64,000 nt of DNA from Alphaproteobacteria bacterium. Lineage in GTDB: Bacteria > Pseudomonadota > Alphaproteobacteria > UBA828. Within the stretch, counting starts at the first letter, position 1. The number at the start of each line of letters is the position of its first letter. Shown in pieces: positions 48,018 to 63,510 of the stretch. Both the position numbers and the translations under genes were made by a program. Under the pieces are notes generated by a model. It searched no databases. It worked only from the letters and a program-made list of their open reading frames with translations, and was not told the DNA's origin. The stretch lies in assembly GCA_963422645.2 (NCBI GenBank), contig CAXXVO010000014.1, positions 256,001 to 320,000 on the forward strand, read 5' to 3'.

Positions 48018-48719
48018 CGGTCAAAAAGAACTGCGGCGCCTCGAAAGGCGCCGCAGCAATCGTGACAGCTTTGTCTACGCGGTCTGGAACTCGTTCCAGC
48101 GTTTCACGACGAGGATGTTCTCGTCCATGATCGAGTTCCACACGGCGACCCGGCCCATGCGGTTCGCGAACGAGCCGCCGTCGCGGACGTGGCCGGGCTG
48201 CTCCATGACGTTGCCGAAGGGATCCTTGACCTCGCCTTCCGCCGGCTTGCCCTCGTACCAGTAATCCCACTCCCAGGGCTCCATGAACCCGCGCGAGTTC
48301 TCGGGCGTGCACATGTAGTAGCCCTGCTTGGAGAAGTAGGCGCCCGCCGGGCCCGAGTGGTACCAGTTGAAGTAGTCGTAGAGGGCGCCGAGCTTCTTGC
48401 CCTCGACGTGGCGCGGGATCATCGCGCCGAGCGCCCAGGCCCGGTAGCCTTCCTTGAGGTCGAGGTAGATGCAGGGCACGCCGCGTGCGCGCACCGCCGC
48501 CACCGCCGGCGACCACATGGACTGCAGCACCACCTCGCCAGAGGTCATCAGATTGACGGAATCGTTGAAGGTGCTCCAGAAGGCGCGGAAGTGCCCGTCC
48601 TTCTTGTAACTGCCCAGGTCGTCTGATTTGTCATTTTGGGCCAGTGGATTGAGGCGTTTCTCGTTCGGAGTTGGTGGAAAGGGCTTGACGGGAATTTCGG
48701 GAAATGACTCAACAACGAC

Positions 48720-50227
48720 ATGAGCAATCCCGAGTCGCCGCGCGGCCCTTCGACGGGAGCAGCGCCCGAAACGCCCGCGCAGAAGATCGCCCGCCTGGAG
48801 GAGGAGAACGCCCGGCTTCGGGAGGAAAATGCCTGGCTTCGGCAGCAGAACGCGCGGCTGGAAGAGCAAGTCGCGCGTCTCGTCGAGCGCATCGAGGAGT
48901 TGGAGCGCCGTCTCGGCCTCAACAGCGGCAACAGCGGCAAGCCGCCTTCGAGCGATGGGCTGAGGAAGCCGAATTCGAAGCGGCGAACCCGAAGCCTGCG
49001 CGGCAAATCGGGCCGCAAGCCCGGTGGCCAGCCCGGCCACAAGGGCAAGACGCTGCGCCGCGCCGATCACCCGGATCGGGTGAAGGATCACGTCCCGGCT
49101 TCCTGCAAGGGATGCGGTTCGCCGCTTTCGGACGCGGCCAGGGCGGGAACGCCCGTCGCCCGCCAGGTGTTCGATCTGCCCGAGCCGAGCCCCCTGGAGG
49201 TGACCGAGCACCGGGCGCATGCCAAGTGCTGCGGGCATTGCGGGACGGTGACCCGGGCGGCGTTCCCCGACGGGGTGTCGGCGCCGGTGCAGTACGGCCC
49301 GCGCATTGCCGGGGTGGCGGTCTACCTTCAGCACGCTCACTTCCTGCCGGAGGATCGGCTGTCGCAGGTGATGGCCGAGCTCTTCGGCGCGCCGGTGACG
49401 GCTGCGACGTTGGCGACGATGAGCGAGAGGGCGGCCGAGCGGCTGTGCGGGACGCGGCCTTGCACATACAGGACCTGGCGGCGGGCACGGCGCGGGTGAA
49501 ACACATGGACGAGACCGGCTTGCGGATCGGCGGTCAGACGCAGTGGCTTCATGTGATCTGCACGCCGCTGCTGGCGGCGTACCGGGTCAGCGGCAAGCGC
49601 GGCGCCCTGCTCTCGGGTGTCTCCGGCATCGTCGTGCACGATCACTGGAAGCCGTACTTCGCGATGGAAGGGGTGGAGCACGGCCTGTGCAACGCCCATC
49701 ACCTGCGGGAGTTGCAGGCGCTGGTGGACATCGAAGGGGAGGCTTGGGCCCGGCGGATGCAGCAGCTCCTGCGCCGAGCCAATCGCGCCGCCCGCATCGC
49801 GCTGGACAAGGATATCGCCGTTCCGGCGAGGCTTGTGGCGCTGATCGAGCGCCGATACGACGAGATCATCGCCGATGCGCTGGCCTTTCACGAGAGCCAA
49901 CCACCGTTCTCGCCTGGCAAGAGGAAGAAGCGCCGGAAGCGAAGGATCGGTCACAATCCGGCCTTGAGGCTGCGCGACCACAAATGCGCGGTGCTCCGGT
50001 TCCTGATCGACCTCGAGGTCGGGTTCACGAACAACGAGGCCGAGCGCGACCTTCGGATGATGAAGCTGCGCCAGAAGATCTCCGGGGGCTTCCGGTCCGC
50101 GCAGGGGGCCGAGAACTTCGCCATCCTGCGCAGCGTCATCACCACCGCCAGAAAGCAGGGCTGGAATATCATCGAAGCCCTGACCAGCCCATCGGATCGG
50201 CTCATCGCCACCGTCAAGTGCGCGTAA
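48720..50227 (+). pseudogene. IS66 transposase, frameshifted near 49445
   Basis: NSGKPPSSD, GGQPGHKG, zinc ribbon; then HMDETG, CNAHHLREL, FTNNEAERDLR in another frame. Confidence 0.9.
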
Positions 50228-50271
50228 GCTCACCTGGCACGGGTTCTCCAACAGCGGAGCCATTCTCATAA

Positions 50272-50479
50272 ACGATCATGGTCGACGCCGTGCTGGACCA
50301 CCCCATAGAATGAAAATCGGTGCCCGTCGCGCGGGCGGACTTCGGGCCACATCGGGGTAGCTTACCGGTCGCAGTCCGCAAGAGGGGCATCGTGAGCTGT
50401 GAAACCCGGCGACCCCAGAGGAGCACACGGGCGTCGCGTGGGTAGCGTTGTGCCGAATCCCAGAGAATTTTCACAGCAA
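50272..50479 (+). mobile_element. non-autonomous mini-IS110 (208 bp) nested in the IS66 right end
   Basis: Both ends align with the ends of the IS110 at 61054-62821 and have the same AA core on each side. Confidence 0.75.
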
Positions 50480-51516
50480 GAACCTGGGCAGTTACTCCTT
50501 CTTGAGCTGGATCAGCCGGTCGAAGGTGTAGTTGATCTCGTCGACCGTCATGTTGCCCTTGTCGCTGTACTCGAGCTCGCCGTTGGCCTCGAGCGCCATG
50601 GCGATATCCATGATGCCGATGCCCGGGAAGTTCTGCAGCGCCGTCCTGCCGCTGAACTCGGGGTTGACGAACTCGGCCCAGGTCTCGATCGGGCGGCCGA
50701 TCTTTTCCGGCTGCGCGCCGAGGGTATCGGCGTTGAAGGTACCGGGCACGATGGTCATCCATTGGCTGGACTCCGGCTCGACGAAGTCCCTGCCTTCGAT
50801 GGCTGAGGTCCAGCAGTAGCGAGACGGGTTCATGCCGTCCCCGTACCAGGCGTCGGCATGGATCTTGCCGCTCTTCTTGAAGATCCCGAGCAGCTGGTCG
50901 AAATGCTCCAGCCTCGTGACGTCGATCGCCTGCATGTTCCCGCTCGGGAAGATCTGCGGGAACTGCTCGAGATCCGGCTCGAAGAGGTCGGCCGATCTCG
51001 GCTGAGTGATGGCGCGCTGGCCGATGGTGTTGAGGTCTACCGCCGACATGTTGAACTGGAAGCCGAGCGCCTCTTCGGCCATCGCCTCGTAGGCGCTGGA
51101 GATCGTCACCGCCGTGCCGATCATGTTGATCTCGATGTCCTGGATGTCCTGCGACCAGACGGTCGGGAATCCGCCGATGCTCGCGCCGGCCGCCACGCCG
51201 GCAACCGCTGCCGAGCCCTTGAGCACGGACCGCCTGGAAATTCCTGTCTTCTTGAGATCCGCCATGAGCTTGCTCCTCCCCATTGTTGCGTTCTTGTCGC
51301 ACCGCAAGCGACGCGATCGGGAAGGAGCCGACGAGCAGGGCGCCCGTCGGCGCCGCCCGTCGCGTCGGAGCAGCACCTCTCCACGCCTAAGTGACTCGCC
51401 CGGAAGTATGCGGCGCTGCGCCAGGTGGCGCAAGCGCGGCACGGGGCCACCCGGCGGCTGTCGATCCCCGAGCCGGAGCGTCAACCGCGCCCGACCCTCA
51501 AGCCGGGATCACTCGC

Positions 51517-54684: not shown

Positions 54685-55975
54685 GTAACTGCCCAGGTCG
54701 TCTGATTTGTCATTTTGGGCCAGTGGATTGAGGCGTTTCTCGTTCGGAGTTGGTGGAAAGGGCTTGACGGGAATTTCGGGAAATGACTCAACAACGACAT
54801 GAGCAATCCCGAGTCGCCGCGCGGCCCTTCGACGGGAGCAGCGCCCGAAACGCCCGCGCAGAAGATCGCCCGCCTGGAGGAGGAGAACGCCCGGCTTCGG
54901 GAGGAAAATGCCTGGCTTCGGCAGCAGAACGCGCGGCTGGAAGAGCAAGTCGCGCGTCTCGTCGAGCGCATCGAGGAGTTGGAGCGCCGTCTCGGCCTCA
55001 ACAGCGGCAACAGCGGCAAGCCGCCTTCGAGCGATGGGCTGAGGAAGCCGAATTCGAAGCGGCGAACCCGAAGCCTGCGCGGCAAATCGGGCCGCAAGCC
55101 CGGTGGCCAGCCCGGCCACAAGGGCAAGACGCTGCGCCGCGCCGATCACCCGGATCGGGTGAAGGATCACGTCCCGGCTTCCTGCAAGGGATGCGGTTCG
55201 CCGCTTTCGGACGCGGCCAGGGCGGGAACGCCCGTCGCCCGCCAGGTGTTCGATCTGCCCGAGCCGAGCCCCCTGGAGGTGACCGAGCACCGGGCGCATG
55301 CCAAGTGCTGCGGGCATTGCGGGACGGTGACCCGGGCGGCGTTCCCCGACGGGGTGTCGGCGCCGGTGCAGTACGGCCCGCGCATTGCCGGGGTGGCGGT
55401 CTACCTTCAGCACGCTCACTTCCTGCCGGAGGATCGGCTGTCGCAGGTGATGGCCGAGCTCTTCGGCGCGCCGGTGACGGCTGCGACGTTGGCGACGATG
55501 AGCGAGAGGGCGGCCGAGCGGCTTGCGGGACGCGGCCTTGCACATACAGGACCTGGCGGCGGGCACGGCGCGGGTGAAACACATGGACGAGACCGGCTTG
55601 CGGATCGGCGGTCAGACGCAGTGGCTTCATGTGATCTGCACGCCGCTGCTGGCGGCGTACCGGGTCAGCGGCAAGCGCGGCGCCCTGCTCTCGGGTGTCT
55701 CCGGCATCGTCGTGCACGATCACTGGAAGCCGTACTTCGCGATGGAAGGGGTGGAGCACGGCCTGTGCAACGCCCATCACCTGCGGGAGTTGCAGGCGCT
55801 GGTGGACATCGAAGGGGAGGCTTGGGCCCGGCGGATGCAGCAGCTCCTGCGCCGAGCCAATCGCGCCGCCCGCATCGCGCTGGACAAGGATATCGCCGTT
55901 CCGGCGAGGCTTGTGGCGCTGATCGAGCGCCGATACGACGAGATCATCGCCGATGCGCTGGCCTTTCACGAGAGC
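54685..55975 (+). mobile_element. IS66 copy 2, truncated by IS21
   Basis: Same left IR and near-identical sequence to copy 1; ends at ...CACGAGAGC where IS21 starts. Confidence 0.93.
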
Positions 55976-60422: not shown

Positions 60423-61133
60423 GGTTCCAGGCCCCCTCAACGCGGCTCCGGTGCGCCCACCAGCGGCCTAATCTCCGACGGCGCGCCAGATTTGCGGGCG
60501 CATCATGCCAAAGTGCGGGCGCAGCGCAAACCCGCAGCGGAGCAAAGGGGCAGGGCGTGATGCGACCCGTGGCGCCTGTCGGTGCCTATTCGACCACGAA
60601 TGTCGGCGAGAAGTCGGCGGGCGCGAGCGAAAGGCGCGTGTTGAACGAGTCGAGATTGGCTTGCTCCACGACGTGGATCAAAGGCCCGGCGTGCGGGTGC
60701 TCGAGCTTGCCTTCGAGAAACCGAACCGCCATCTCGATACCCATCCGGCCTTGCAGGGCGGGGAAATCGGTGGGCGCCGCGAGGATCTTGTCGCGCTTGA
60801 TGCCGCGATACACCGCATGCGTGAAGTAGTCCGCCAACACCCGGATCTGCCCGGTGAGGCCGCGCGCCCTGAGCAGGCTCACCGCGGCGCCCGCGGTGAC
60901 CGCGCTGCCCACGATGTAGTCGACATCGGGGCGTTCCTCCAGCGCCTCCTCGACTAGGATCAGCTGGATTTCGCGGCCGGTGTCGCCCCACTTCTTCACG
61001 ACGATGTCGACGGCGCTGCCCGCGAGCGCCTCGGTGAATCCCTCCTCGACAAAACAGTCATGGTCCCCGCGGTTCTGAGCCACCCCGTGGCATGAAACAG
61101 GAGCGGTTCGGCTGACGTTTTCCTTGCGCTTGC

Positions 61134-61345
61134 ACCCATTTGCCGTGTCAGGATGGGTATTGGCGGAGGTGGGGACGTGTGAGCGTCGTTATATCGGTGA
61201 CGTAGTTCCCGATGACAAAACTGCTTCCGGCGGCCGGCTCCGCACCCCGTATTGTACCCGGCCCGTGGCCGTGGACGCGCGGCAAATTGCACCGCACCCG
61301 CTCGTCGGATGCGTGTTCTTCCGACCGCTGTCCCCGCCTCCACCG
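61134..61345 (+). ncRNA. candidate IS110 bridge RNA
   Basis: Structured non-coding left end: 12-bp stem 61165-61176/61330-61341; short matches to target (GACAAA, 61214) and circle junction (CGGCAAA, 61280). Confidence 0.5.
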
Positions 61346-61406
61346 TGGCGATGCCACGGCGTGATCGTACGCCGCCGTGGCGAGAGCGCAAATGAGGAGG
61401 AAGGCG

Positions 61407-62657
61407 ATGAAGACGGAAGGCTTGCACGTCGTCCGGCCGCGCGCGGCGGGTCTGGACGTGCACAAGATGGAGATCACCGCGACGGTTCGCCTCTGTGAGG
61501 GCGAGGGTGAGCCGGTGGTGGAGACGCGCTGCTTCGGCACGCTGCCGAGCGGTCTGGAGGAGATGGTCGCGTGGCTGACCGGTCACGGCGTCGAGGCTGC
61601 GGTGATGGAAGGGACCGGGGTCTACTGGCAGGCGCCCTTCGCGGCCCTGGAGGCGGCCGGGCTCGAGGCGATCCTGGTGCATGCGCGTCAGGTGAAGCAG
61701 TTGAAGGGGCGCAAGACCGACGTGGCGGACAGCGTGTGGCTGGCCTGCGTGTGCCAGTTCGGGCTCTGCACGCCTTCCCACGTTCCGCCTGAGCCGTTCC
61801 GGGAGCTGCGCGCACTGAGCCGCCAGCGCCGCGTCCTGGTCAGGCAGCGCTCCGCCGTGCGCAACCGCGTGCAGAAGATCATCGACCGCGCCGGTGCGCG
61901 CATCGGCGGCATCCTCTCCGACGTCTTCGGCGTCAACGGCCGGAAGATCCTCGACGGCCTGGCGCAGGGGACGGCGCGCGAGGTCATCCTCGCCTCGCTC
62001 ACCAGCCACGTTGCGAACAAGCTGGAGGGGCTCGGCGAGGCGCTCACCCTGAGCCTGGGCGACAACGACCGCTTCATGCTCAACGACCTGCTGGAGGAGC
62101 ATGACGCGCTTGAGGCGCGCATCGCGTCCTACACCAGGAAGATCGACGGGCAGATGACACCGTGGGAGGAGCAGCTCCGTCTGCTGACCACCATCCCCGG
62201 CATCGACCGCACCGCCGCCTCGACCATCCTCATCGAGATCGGCCCCGACATCGGCGTGTTCGCCTCCAAGGAGCACTTCGCCGCCTGGGCCGGGCTCTGC
62301 CCCGGCAACAACGAGAGCGGGGGCAAGCGCCGCAACGCACGCACCCGCATGGGCTCCAAGACCCTGCGCGCCTGCCTCGTCGAGTGTGCCCACGGCGCGG
62401 CCCGAACCAAGGGGTGCCAGTTCGAGGCTCATCACCGCGCCCTCGCCGCCCGGCGCGGCTACAAGCGCGCCATCGTCGCCGGCGCTCACAAGATGCTGCG
62501 CATCATCTATGTGGTGCTCAAGACCGGCAGGCCCTACTACGACCGCACGGCCGACTACGACGCTCTGATGGTCAAGCGCAACGCTCCTCGGTGGATCCGC
62601 ATGCTCCGCCGCTACGGCTACATCGAGCCCGTAGGCGCGGAACTCAAGGCCGCCTGA
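61407..62657 (+). CDS. IS110 DEDD recombinase
   Basis: GLDVHK, MEGTGVYW, KTDVAD, TIPGI, AGLCPGNNESGG; GAGGAGG RBS. Confidence 0.96.
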   Translation: MKTEGLHVVRPRAAGLDVHKMEITATVRLCEGEGEPVVETRCFGTLPSGLEEMVAWLTGHGVEAAVMEGTGVYWQAPFAALEAAGLEAILVHARQVKQLKGRKTDVADSVWLACVCQFGLCTPSHVPPEPFRELRALSRQRRVLVRQRSAVRNRVQKIIDRAGARIGGILSDVFGVNGRKILDGLAQGTAREVILASLTSHVANKLEGLGEALTLSLGDNDRFMLNDLLEEHDALEARIASYTRKIDGQMTPWEEQLRLLTTIPGIDRTAASTILIEIGPDIGVFASKEHFAAWAGLCPGNNESGGKRRNARTRMGSKTLRACLVECAHGAARTKGCQFEAHHRALAARRGYKRAIVAGAHKMLRIIYVVLKTGRPYYDRTADYDALMVKRNAPRWIRMLRRYGYIEPVGAELKAA

Positions 62658-63510
62658 GCGGCCCGCATCTCGTCAGCCGGCTACGCGGGACCGCTTCGGA
62701 CCACATCGGGGAAGTCCACCGCTCGTCTCCGCCGCGCCGACCCTGGCGGTCTCAGCCAACGCCGTGACCTCGGGGTTGGAGCGTCACCGCGCGTCCCTCG
62801 CCAGAATCTGTTTCACGGCAAGTAGGCCCACTGCGACTCCCGCGGGCCGGGGAACCACGCCACCTTGACCGGCGGCGTGCCGGCCGGATGGAGGTTGGCA
62901 AGGTAGGCTCCGGTCACTTCTCCCATCGTGACCCAGGAGACGGCGGCCTTGGCGCTGATGCCGGGGTCGGCGATGTCGTTGACCACGGCGAGCACCGGAA
63001 TCTTCTCGCTGATCGCGAGCACCGCCTCGGTCAGCCCGTCGAAGCTCACCGCGCCCAGCGCCAGGATGTCCGCGTCCTGGGCGCATTCGGTGATCTGGGC
63101 AATTTGGCGTTCGAGGTTGGGGTAGCCGCCCGCCTCGACCACGCGGAGCGCGACGCCGAGCCGCTTCGCCTCCTCGACCATGCCGTAGTTGACGCTCAGC
63201 CAGTACGAATCCTTGAGGTGAGGATAGGAGGCGCAGATGCGCCATTTCTGCGACGCCCGCTCGAGGGGGCGATAGGTGATGGTCGTCGTCGGGCTGCGGA
63301 AATCGAAGGGCGGCGACCAGACTTCGAGCGCCCACTCCGAGGGGGACGCAGTAGTCTCAACCGCTTGCTGGTCAGACCCGAGCGTCGGGCCTGCGGCCAG
63401 CACCAGGCTCGCGAGGAGACCAGGAATCAGTCTTGATAGGCGCCAAAGTCTCATGGCCGGCATGATGCGGCCGATTGCCTTTTGAATCCAACCGGTGTTC
63501 TAATTTCACG

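What the first reader, a model, noticed from the sequence alone, without database searches (positions are those of the whole stretch)
50272..50479. 208-bp recombinase-less mini-IS110 hitch-hiking inside IS66
Seen: its first 44 bp match the left end of the IS110 at 61054 (33/44 ungapped; ACGATCATGGTC vs ACAGTCATGGTC). A block at 50330 matches the IS110 right end at 62684 (32/42, including CCACATCGGGG). It ends TTTCACAGC-AA versus TTTCACGGC-AA. Both elements sit between AA cores but in different targets (TTCTCAT-AA-GAACCTG vs CTCGACA-AA-GTAGGCC). The internal complement of the terminus covaries (GCTGTGA with TCACAGC; GCCGTGA with TCACGGC). It lacks the recombinase and the long structured left region. 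Inference: a MITE-like parasite mobilised in trans by a related bridge recombinase, which would define minimal donor ends; the retained right end may encode its own structured RNA.
Basis: partly seen in the sequence, partly recalled or inferred. Interest (0 to 1): 0.75.

Follow-up and report, generated by a model that had tools for sequence, protein, structure and literature searches.

The report
Miniature IS110 riding inside IS66
A 208-bp stub of an RNA-guided (IS110-type) jumping gene, lacking both its enzyme and its guide RNA, landed once inside the end of another jumping gene (IS66 type) and was copied about a hundred times as a passenger; a rare but already known kind of element.

Summary

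Window 50272-50479 has both ends of an IS110-family element: 33/44 anchored identities at the left and 32/42 in the right-end block, with matching termini. It has no recombinase. It also lacks the left-end region where the full-length IS110 carries its target guide (GATGACAAAAC, 61211-61221).

It belongs to a family of 200-211-bp miniature elements. Family members sit at unrelated sites in a congener (4 copies), a gammaproteobacterial MAG (17 copies) and another alphaproteobacterium (a tandem dimer).

Homologues of the host IS66 in four congeners lack the segment (20 of 20 loci). One contig of a public run joins across it.

Corrections:
1. In this genome all 114 hits lie at one spot, 16 bp inside the right inverted repeat of a 1890-bp IS66-family element. 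There are no empty sites and no solo copies. The roughly 100 copies therefore come from IS66 transposition, not from the mini moving.
2. The "covarying internal complement" lies in non-homologous alignment columns and is absent in relatives. What does covary is a 7-9-bp subterminal inverted repeat and one right-end hairpin.
3. The resident IS110 is not the parent, and its guide does not fit the IS66 site.

Precedent: MITEPpu9 of ISPpu9.

The parts
50272..50479 (+). Miniature IS110-family element (208 bp, one AA core counted; the start is ambiguous by 1 nt). It has no recombinase and no bridge-RNA guide region.
   Evidence: Homology to both IS110 ends. Family alignment with minis from 3 other genomes. 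Absent from IS66 homologues.
50272..50281 (+). Left terminus (right-donor side), ACGATCATGG. The resident IS110 has ACAGTCATGG.
50279..50300 (+). Left-end hairpin or inverted repeat, TGGTC...GACCA. It becomes TGGCC...GGCCA in other minis.
   Evidence: Pair 11/26 is UA in 6 sequences and CG in 4.
50282..50311 (+). Sigma-70-like promoter match, TCGACG-18 nt-TAGAAT, reading rightwards towards the IS66 tip.
   Evidence: 9/12 matches, 1 found against 0.1 expected. The -10-like box is TAGAAT in 9 minis and TATCAT in the tenth. No transcript evidence.
50311..50317 (+). Left copy of the subterminal inverted repeat, TGAAAAT.
   Evidence: Covaries with the right copy across lineages.
50409..50437 (+). 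Right-end hairpin H4 (GCGACCC...GCGTCGC). It is conserved in the minis and in full-length IS110 right ends.
   Evidence: 4 of 7 pairs change on both sides. G321's right end has a perfect 9-bp version.
50467..50473 (+). Right copy of the subterminal inverted repeat, ATTTTCA.
50470..50479 (+). Right terminus (left-donor side) TTCACAGC plus the core AA. Every other family member has TTCACGGC.
48606..50495 (+). Host element: a 1890-bp single-ORF IS66-family IS with inverted repeats GTAACTGCCCAGGT. The mini lies 16 bp from its right tip. This copy carries a private 2-bp insertion near 49446 that breaks the reading frame.
   Evidence: Pfam DUF6444, zf-IS66 and DDE_Tnp_IS66. Frame variants.
48598..48605 (.). 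Left copy of the 8-bp target duplication of the IS66 copy (TCCTTCTT). The right copy is at 50496-50503.
61054..62821 (+). Full-length IS110-family element (1768 bp). The recombinase gene is at 61407-62657. There are 48 copies in the genome.
   Evidence: Pfam PF01548 and PF02371.
61211..61221 (+). Candidate left-target guide of the IS110 bridge RNA, GATGACAAAAC. It equals the left-flank consensus GACAAA. No counterpart exists in the mini.
   Evidence: Flank consensus from 33 unique sites. The homologous position in the gammaproteobacterial IS110 reads GTTACCCAAAC, and its targets are ACCCAA|.
61093..61100 (+). Left subterminal repeat of the IS110, TGAAACAG. The right copy, CTGTTTCA, is at 62808-62815.

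Best explanation
The segment is a non-autonomous, MITE-like derivative of an IS110-family (bridge-recombinase) element.

What it keeps:
- About 50 bp of the left end: the terminus, a small hairpin, a -10-like box and the left subterminal repeat.
- About 150 bp of the right end: a conserved hairpin, the right subterminal repeat, the terminus and the AA core.

What it has lost:
- The recombinase gene.
- The left-end stretch that encodes the bridge RNA guides.

It can therefore move only if a related autonomous IS110 supplies both protein and guide RNA in trans (inferred).

History:
1. One such mini inserted once at ...CTCAT(A)AA|GAACC, 16 bp inside the right inverted repeat of a single-ORF IS66-family element (shown by comparison with empty homologues).
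2. That IS66 then multiplied to about 100 copies through its own DDE transposase, carrying the mini along (shown: every copy has identical junctions).

In this genome the mini looks immobile. Its ends differ from those of the resident IS110 (CACAGC versus CACGGC; ACGATC versus ACAGTC). Its IS66 site does not fit the resident guide's target consensus.
For: 1. Homology to both IS110 ends, in register: 33/44 and 32/42, with shuffle controls.

2. Copies in this genome.
- 93 near-full copies and 21 partial copies; all keep IS66 sequence on every side that is intact.
- 93/93 share the same 40-nt left flank.
- The left junction occurs 103 times, the right junction 106 times and the empty site 0 times.

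3. The segment is absent from related IS66 elements.
- Sister IS66 types in the same genome (43 and 20 hits) lack it.
- IS66 homologues at 87-95% identity in 4 congeners lack it, 20/20 loci.
- In run X11 one contig lies on 50269 and 50478 with a single G between them. Another runs from 50272 straight into GAACCTGGGCAGTTAC.

4. The same architecture occurs at unrelated sites elsewhere.
- G034: 4 full copies plus 2 truncated.
- Gammaproteobacterial MAG G446: 17 copies at 90% identity or more.
- G321: a tandem dimer plus one broken copy.

5. The guide lies in the part of the left end that the mini lacks.
- GATGACAAAAC matches the flank consensus: C at -4 in 33/33 flanks and A at -5 in 29/33.
- In G446 it covaries, reading GTTACCCAAAC with targets ...ACCCAA|. 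A full-length copy and 5 minis share one REP-like target there.

6. The LE and RE motifs occur in G000 only in the mini copies and in the 48 IS110 copies.

7. The IS66 host is a real, recently active IS.
- 65 full-length hits; 8-bp target duplication.
- 75 copies are in frame at the site where the window copy is frameshifted.
Against: - No circle junction, excision product or transposition event of any mini was observed directly. Only contigs could be laid, and these drop rare variants.
- No intact autonomous partner with ends identical to any mini was found. The G446 copy is broken: it has 1 TGA and is cut by another IS. G321 has only fragments.
- The right end of the G446 IS110 lacks the CTTCGGGCCACATCGGGG block that its minis carry. 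The minis are therefore not simple recent deletion products of the co-resident element.
- Retention of about 150 bp of conserved right end, far more than the ~14-nt donor a bridge RNA reads, hints at a further function that this explanation leaves open.
- The left boundary is off by one base relative to the empty sites in X11.
Confidence: 0.85

Rival explanations
1. The mini is more than a passenger. Its left-end promoter-like site and structured right end were co-opted by the IS66 host. They could act as an outward promoter near the right tip that raises transposase expression from circles or tandem copies, or that drives neighbouring genes. This would help explain why this IS66 type is the most abundant in the genome.
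For: - A promoter-like match TCGACG-18-TAGAAT points towards the IS66 tip. The -10-like box is kept in all 10 minis aligned.
- The IS66 type carrying the mini has about 100 copies. Its two sister types without it have 43 and 20 hits.
- An insertion 16 bp inside the inverted repeat did not stop transposition.
Against: - There is no transcript evidence.
- Copy number differences between IS types have many possible causes.
- The promoter match is 9/12 and rests on consensus only.
- Whether this IS66 type forms circles was not tested.
Confidence: 0.1
2. The mini carries its own functional RNA, transcribed from the retained right end. This could be a regulatory small RNA like Ssr9 of MITEPpu9, or a second guide. 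On this view it is a selfish RNA gene with IS110 ends rather than a bare pair of ends.
For: - Hairpin H4 keeps pairing through changes on both sides in 4 of 7 pairs. The named structure pairs 93-94% of cells, against 37-50% when the partners are slid.
- Several G-U pairs fit only the + strand.
- The right end is conserved across alpha- and gammaproteobacterial hosts, about 85% identity between own and G446 minis.
- Precedent: MITEPpu9 carries ssr9 (PMC12288879, passages and section 15 read).
Against: - No stretch in the mini matches target flanks in the way the left-end guide does (reading).
- Single-sequence folds are no better than shuffles, z = 0.26 and 0.00.
- No Rfam family matches.
- The structure was derived from the same sequences, so the controls flatter it.
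- The invariant helix CTTCGG/TCGGGG is broken in G321's IS110 right end, which reads CCAAGG.
- The hairpins could equally act at the DNA level.
Confidence: 0.12
3. A full-length IS110 inserted into the IS66 and was then cut down in place by an internal deletion. On this view the 208 bp never moved as a miniature element.
For: Internal deletion is the usual origin of MITE-like elements, and the resident IS110 is abundant with 48 copies.
Against: - Minis with the same join between left and right parts exist outside IS66 in other genomes, at 85-87% identity to this one. The deletion therefore predates this insertion.
- The mini is only 52-54% identical to the resident IS110 over the right end.
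- Its IS66 site does not fit the resident guide.
Confidence: 0.03
4. The segment is an original part of this IS66 type, and the likeness to IS110 ends is chance or convergence.
For: Every IS66 copy of this type in the genome carries it.
Against: - 20/20 homologous IS66 loci in 4 congeners and both sister types lack it.
- A contig in X11 joins across it.
- The same 200-211-bp unit, with the same boundaries, occurs outside any IS66.
- The anchored identity has P of about 6e-11.
Confidence: 0.01

Closest known systems
MITEPpu9 (the ssr9 module) of ISPpu9, Pseudomonas putida KT2440. Source: Pares-Guillen et al. 2025, NAR, PMC12288879 (abstract, passages and section 15 read).
   Same: - A small recombinase-less element whose two ends resemble those of an IS110-family IS.
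- Copies occur away from the IS.
- The authors propose that it hitch-hikes on the IS110 transposase. They detected minicircles that depended on the transposase.
   Different: - MITEPpu9 carries a known abundant small RNA gene. It often sits in tandem directly downstream of the ISPpu9 transposase gene.
- The element here has no known RNA. It is nested inside an unrelated IS66-family element and owes its copy number to that host.
- No experiment exists for it.
IS621 / IS110 bridge recombination. Sources: Durrant et al. 2024, PMC11208160 (passages read); Hiraizumi et al. 2026, PMC13626964 (abstract read).
   Same: - A core dinucleotide at both junctions, with no terminal inverted repeats.
- A guide in the left end of the full-length relative has the same sense as left target plus core, as described for the left target guide.
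- Donor ends are flanked by a subterminal inverted repeat.
   Different: - The mini has neither the recombinase nor the bridge RNA.
- The subterminal repeat is 7-9 bp, a length Durrant et al. give for the IS1111 group (7-17 bp), while the guide lies in the left end as in the IS110 group.
- The left repeat copy lies 39 nt inside the element.
Compact and expanded natural IS110 loci. Source: Hu et al. 2026 preprint, 10.64898/2026.08.14.744561 (abstract and passages read).
   Same: - They report ~800-bp elements with a recombinase but no 5' untranslated region, which suggests that bridge RNA can act in trans.
- They also report tandem duplication of whole IS110 modules, as seen here in 11 head-to-tail junctions.
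   Different: Their small elements still encode the recombinase. The passages I read do not describe a form lacking both recombinase and guide. Their supplements could not be seen.
Classical bacterial MITEs derived from DDE transposons (recalled general knowledge; a review appeared in the search listing only)
   Same: A short, non-coding, multi-copy deletion derivative that depends on a transposase supplied in trans.
   Different: - It has no terminal inverted repeats and makes no target duplication beyond the core.
- Mobilisation would need an RNA guide as well as a protein.

Membership tests
Non-autonomous (MITE-like) IS110-family element | Both termini are homologous to those of an autonomous IS110-family element, in the same order and orientation. 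| tested here: met
   33/44 and 32/42 identities, termini 10/12, with shuffle controls. Family alignment.
Non-autonomous (MITE-like) IS110-family element | No recombinase gene. | tested here: met
   The element is 208 bp in all. The IS110 recombinase (PF01548 plus PF02371) is 416 aa. The only ORF of 80 aa or more touching the segment runs out of it into the flank.
Non-autonomous (MITE-like) IS110-family element | Related sequences exist with the site empty. | tested here: met
   20/20 IS66 homologue loci in 4 congeners. Sister IS66 types. A contig in X11.
Non-autonomous (MITE-like) IS110-family element | Copies at unrelated sites, as a trace of mobility. | tested here: inconclusive
   Not met in this genome: 0 of 114 hits lie outside the one IS66 site. 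Met for the family: G034 has 4 copies, G446 has 17 and G321 has 3.
Non-autonomous (MITE-like) IS110-family element | Excision to a circle and insertion depend on a recombinase and bridge RNA supplied in trans. | not testable with these tools
   Only contigs could be laid. The inference rests on the shared target in G446.
MITE in the strict sense | Terminal inverted repeats and a target-site duplication. | tested here: not met
   The ends ACGATCATGG and TTCACAGCAA are not inverted repeats. Only a subterminal 7-bp repeat exists. Only the AA core is shared by the two junctions.
Bridge RNA (IS110 guide RNA) | A loop with a guide that has the same sense as left target plus core. | tested here: not met
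   The guide is found in the full-length element's left end (61211-61221). No counterpart exists in the mini alignment. No Rfam family matches; whether Rfam holds such a family was not checked.
IS66 family (host element) | IS66-type DDE transposase with zinc finger, inverted repeats and an 8-bp target duplication. | tested here: met
   PF03050, PF13005 and PF20042. Inverted repeats GTAACTGCCCAGGT. Target duplication TCCTTCTT. Assignment to the single-ORF (ISBst12-like) group is recalled, not tested.
IS110 family (full-length comparator at 61054-62821) | DEDD recombinase with the IS110 C-terminal domain, and site-specific insertion without a large duplication. | tested here: met
   PF01548 (83.5 bits) and PF02371 (75.4 bits). 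48 copies with left flank ACAAA in 28/33 unique sites. Empty site in congeners.

The most novel reading that the evidence does not exclude
The ~200-bp unit is a maintained functional module rather than a decayed stub. It consists of a left-end promoter driving a ~150-nt structured right-end RNA, bracketed by a covarying subterminal repeat. It has been kept across alpha- and gammaproteobacterial hosts even where the autonomous IS110 is dead. It could take part in bridge recombination, for example as a cis or trans accessory RNA or a recombinase landing pad beyond the ~14-nt donor. Lodged in the IS66 inverted repeat, it could also give that IS an outward promoter that helped its expansion to about 100 copies.
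Probability: 0.12. Interest if true: 0.7.

Novelty: new member of a known kind. Interest (0 to 1): 0.42.

Why it matters
Bridge recombinases are being developed as programmable genome editors. The donor they read is usually taken to be a few bases either side of the core.

This natural family of elements has lost both the enzyme and the guide RNA, yet spread to many sites in at least three other genomes. That shows what evolution keeps in cis: about 50 bp of the left end and about 150 bp of the right end. The kept parts include a covarying 7-9-bp subterminal repeat and a conserved hairpin. This is a ready-made deletion series for asking what a donor needs beyond guide complementarity.

It also shows a route to high copy number that needs no IS110 activity at all, namely nesting inside another active IS.

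For genome annotation it explains an odd 208-bp block in about 100 IS66 copies. The finding is a second example of a kind already described (MITEPpu9), not a new principle.

Tried and rejected
Rfam. Six weak hits at E up to 1. All are below the gathering score and none overlaps the mini or the IS110 ends.

Single-sequence folds. The folds of the mini on both strands and of the IS110 left end are no more stable than shuffles (z = 0.03, 0.26, 0.00). No use was made of them.

Metagenome scan. The pattern was an 18-letter right-end motif. Of 58 loci, only L110 shows the family's right terminus at the expected distance. I judged the other 57 to be chance matches from their context and did not examine them further. 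No mini was found in this scan.

Plasmid collection. No match.

Class-level protein search. Only distant recombinases turned up, at 37-40% identity in 3 of 400 other genomes. They were of no use for the ends.

Parent in G000. There are 68 PF01548 hits, 48 of them from this IS110. The mini's LE and RE motifs occur nowhere else in the genome.

- The two heptamers lie in non-homologous columns.
- No complement of the terminus of 7 nt or more is present in L031 or in the G034 and G031 IS110 right ends (reading).
- L110 carries TCACGGC in the same sense, not as a complement.

A 9-nt identity between L031's interior (CTCATAAGA) and this mini's IS66 target site looked like a guide at first. It lies in a self-complementary hairpin, CCTC-ATAA-GAGG. 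By my rough count a match this long is expected about 1 time in 10 over the comparisons I made. It was dropped.

A junction promoter across the right and left ends was looked for by eye. No convincing -35/-10 pair was found.

Reads and runs.
- Run X13 has no cover over 50275-50495. Runs X15-X20 (RNA) hold only 0.11-0.15 of the words. None of this is used as evidence.
- In one search, four of nine loci were printed on the wrong strand by my script and are uninformative.

Supplements of the papers were not available. The supplementary figures of PMC12288879 and the tables of Durrant et al. may list further IS110-derived miniature elements.

Full report
**What is at the coordinates**

Window 50272-50479 reads ACGATCATGG...TTTTCACAGCAA and lies between ...CATTCTCATAA and GAACCTGGGCAGTTAC. 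The IS110 at 61054-62821 reads ACAGTCATGG...GTTTCACGGCAA and lies between ...CTCGACAAA and GTAGGCC.
- 33/44 ungapped identities at the left, with binomial P about 6e-11 for an anchored comparison.
- 32/42 ungapped identities for 50330 against 62684, while neighbouring offsets give 11-14/42.
- Local alignment scores of 35 and 37, reached by 1 and 0 of 2000 shuffles.

The full-length element encodes a 416-aa protein with PF01548 and PF02371.

**The host element**

The mini lies in a 1890-bp element at 48606-50495.
- It is bounded by inverted GTAACTGCCCAGGT and by an 8-bp duplication, TCCTTCTT.
- Its single gene carries DUF6444, zf-IS66 and DDE_Tnp_IS66.
- The window copy has a private 2-bp insertion near 49446 that splits the frame. 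Over that stretch, 75 copies carry the in-frame version and 33 carry a +1 version.
- The mini sits 16 bp from the right tip, inside the right inverted repeat, in the same orientation as the transposase gene.

**Copies in the window's own genome**

BLAST of the 208 bp finds 114 hits. Of these, 93 cover 200 nt or more at 98.6-100% identity (53 are identical), and 21 are partial.
- All 93 have the same 40-nt IS66 left flank.
- 88 run into the IS66 tip. The other 5 are cut about 8 nt before their right end by the left end of another IS66-family copy.
- The 21 partial hits also keep IS66 sequence on their intact side. They are cut by contig ends or by other insertion sequences.
All 103 copies of the 20-nt left flank are followed by the mini.

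So within this genome the segment occurs at one site of one element only. Its copy number is the copy number of that IS66.

**Is it an insertion?**

Yes, on three lines of evidence.
- Two sister IS66 types in the same genome (43 and 20 hits at 65-67% identity) end ...ATCAGACCTGGGCAGTTAC without it.
- Homologues of this IS66 type at 87-95% identity occur in congeners G025, G033, G034 and G043. All 20 loci I printed read straight through the site, for example CCCATGAACAACCTGGGCAGTTAC. Nineteen are shown to the tip. One was cut by my print 10 nt short of the tip but reads past the site.
- Public runs were laid as contigs. In X11, one record lies on 50269 and 50478 with one G between them (depth 4.6). 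Another record runs from 50272 into GAACCTGGGCAGTTAC. These give empty sites CTCAT(G/A)AAGAACC. In X13, an IS66 homologue continues into an uninterrupted end. X5 and X9 hold the IS66-plus-mini composite with 0 and 1 differences.

**Does the unit exist on its own?**

Yes, in other genomes.
- G034, a congener, has four full copies outside any IS66. One is 87% identical to this one and three belong to a 66-69% identical subtype. It also has two 41-bp remnants.
- A strict pattern scan of 185,579 species genomes hit two records. One is the G034 chromosome. The other is a gammaproteobacterial MAG (G446), where BLAST finds 17 copies at 90% identity or more and 6 fragments.
- The G446 flanks differ from copy to copy. 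Several copies lie in a REP-like repeat, CCTCACCCC-AA(A)-CCCCTCTCC, which is itself present 97 times unoccupied.
- In a sample of 400 other genomes of the class, one (G321) has a head-to-tail dimer of a 204-bp variant plus a broken copy.
- X11 also holds mini-like contigs with a non-IS66 left flank.

All these units share the same architecture and boundaries. The internal deletion therefore predates the insertion into IS66.

**Where the guide RNA is**

The 48 IS110 copies in the genome, 46 of them identical over 1768 nt, give 33 unique non-tandem left flanks.
- The consensus is (G)ACA-AA. C at -4 occurs in 33/33, A at -5 in 29/33 and G at -6 in 17/33. The first base to the right is A in 23/33.
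- The left end contains GATGACAAAAC at 61211-61221. It has the same sense as left target plus core, as Durrant et al. describe for the left target guide (PMC11208160, passages).
- The homologous position in the G446 full-length relative (66% aa identity) reads GTTACCCAAAC. That copy and five minis sit at ...CACCCCAA|.

The guide therefore covaries with the target, and it lies in the stretch that the minis lack. A conserved CGCGGCAAA at 61278-61286 resembles the right terminus plus core and may be the donor guide (inference). Hence the minis need both the protein and the RNA in trans.

**Fit to the resident IS110**

The fit is poor.
- The IS66 site has T where 33/33 IS110 targets have C.
- The mini's right terminus is CACAGC, whereas all other family members have CACGGC.
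- Its left terminus is ACGATC against ACAGTC.
- The LE and RE motifs occur in this genome only in the mini and in the 48 IS110 copies.
- Over the right end, the mini is only 52-54% identical to the IS110 right ends.

So the resident IS110 is a cousin, not the parent. The insertion was probably made by another guide, possibly in another host. Present immobility is plausible (inference).

**What is conserved in cis**

A subterminal inverted repeat covaries between lineages:
- This IS110: TGAAACAG and CTGTTTCA.
- G446 IS110: TGAAAGTG and CACTTTCA (the left and right ends come from different broken copies).
- Most minis: TGAAAAT and ATTTTCA.
- One mini subtype: TGAAAATGT and ACATTTTCA.

RNAalifold on 13 sequences proposes small hairpins. 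Counting pairs on the named structure gives 93-94% of cells paired, against 37-50% for slid partners.
- H4 (50409-50437) changes on both sides in 4 of 7 pairs. It is a perfect 9-bp stem in G321's IS110 right end.
- The left hairpin changes UA to CG in 4 of 10 sequences.
- These controls are flattered because the structure came from the same sequences, and the changes reflect few evolutionary events.
- The invariant CTTCGG/TCGGGG pairing is not supported, because G321's right end reads CCAAGG there.

The second is part of the stem and loop of H4.

A promoter-like TCGACG-18-TAGAAT match points rightwards. No RNA evidence was obtained.

**Comparison with what is known**

- MITEPpu9 is a recombinase-less module with ISPpu9-like ends. 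It carries ssr9, occurs away from the IS and forms transposase-dependent minicircles (PMC12288879; abstract, passages and section 15 read).
- Hu et al. describe ~800-bp IS110 elements that lack the 5' untranslated region, and tandem duplication of IS110 modules (10.64898/2026.08.14.744561; abstract and passages).
- My three literature searches turned up no other IS110-derived miniature element and no case nested in an IS66. Supplements were not visible.

I therefore file this as a new member of a known kind. Its particular features are the loss of the guide as well as the enzyme, spread across two proteobacterial classes, a long covarying subterminal repeat, and amplification purely by riding in another IS.

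**Verdict**

- Best explanation (0.85): a trans-dependent IS110 stub inserted once into the IS66 right inverted repeat and multiplied as a passenger.
- Interest is moderate.

Noticed in passing
G000 contigs, e.g. C11:48115-56956 (five copies), C16:27179-32482, C10:44759-50063; the IS110 in the window is at 61054-62821: The 1768-bp IS110 forms head-to-tail tandem arrays of up to five copies. There are 11 tandem junctions, 6 with AAA and 5 with AAAA between the ends. The right terminus plus the first base (GGCAAA) resembles the element's own target ACAAA, which may explain self-adjacent insertion.
   Followed up: partly
window 49441-49453: The IS66 copy in the window has a private 2-bp insertion (TG) that splits its transposase into two frames. 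Over the same stretch, 75 copies carry an in-frame version and 33 copies carry a +1 version.
   Followed up: partly
window 54685-55975: A second copy of the same IS66 type matches only nt 1-1292 (99.9% identity) and so lacks its right part and the mini. What cuts it was not examined.
   Followed up: no
G000, e.g. C19:46419, C15:4378, C11:32096, C9:511248, C16:41031; also C5:328972/331485 and C8:518888/517864: The mini is itself a target for other insertion sequences. Five copies are cut at position 39/40 by the right end of IS66-family elements. Four are split at positions 88-92 by another IS whose end reads CAGACTTCCTGACC. Several IS66 copies have also inserted at GAATTTTC near the mini's right end.
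   Followed up: partly
L031:1580-1600 (minus strand) versus window 50262-50271 and 50480-50484: The closest relative of the mini carries CCTCATAAGAGG internally. Nine of these letters equal the uninterrupted IS66 target of the window's mini. The stretch folds as a small hairpin. By my rough estimate the match is expected about 1 time in 10 over the comparisons I made.
   Followed up: partly
window 61048-61053 versus L189, L190, L193, L194, L196: Congeners have the IS110 site of the window empty, reading CTCGACGAA|GTAGG. The occupied site reads CTCGACAAA, a G-to-A difference at the base just left of the core. In the IS66 site the empty forms in run X11 likewise carry G or A at that place.
   Followed up: no
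G446 (L198-L209 and 85 further matches): The gammaproteobacterial MAG carries about 97 copies of a REP-like repeat, CCTCACCCC(AA/AAA/CGG)CCCCTCTCC, often in inverted pairs about 40 bp apart. The AAA form is the target of its IS110 and of several minis.
   Followed up: partly
L210:1478-1886: G321 holds two 204-bp minis head to tail sharing one AA(A) junction. This mirrors the tandem arrays of the full-length IS110. The genome has only fragments of an IS110 recombinase gene.
   Followed up: partly
L049 and L050 (G034), about 1501-1541: Two paralogous loci next to a tyrosine-integrase gene keep only the first 41 bp of a mini, joined directly to the right flank seen at the full copy in L034. These look like internal deletions of an inserted mini.
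   Followed up: partly
L154:2532-3100 (G446): The only near-full IS110 relative in G446 has one in-frame TGA. It is interrupted after nt 1382 by an element starting GTAAGCG that encodes an IS66 TnpA-like protein. This is the reverse nesting of the one in the window.
   Followed up: no
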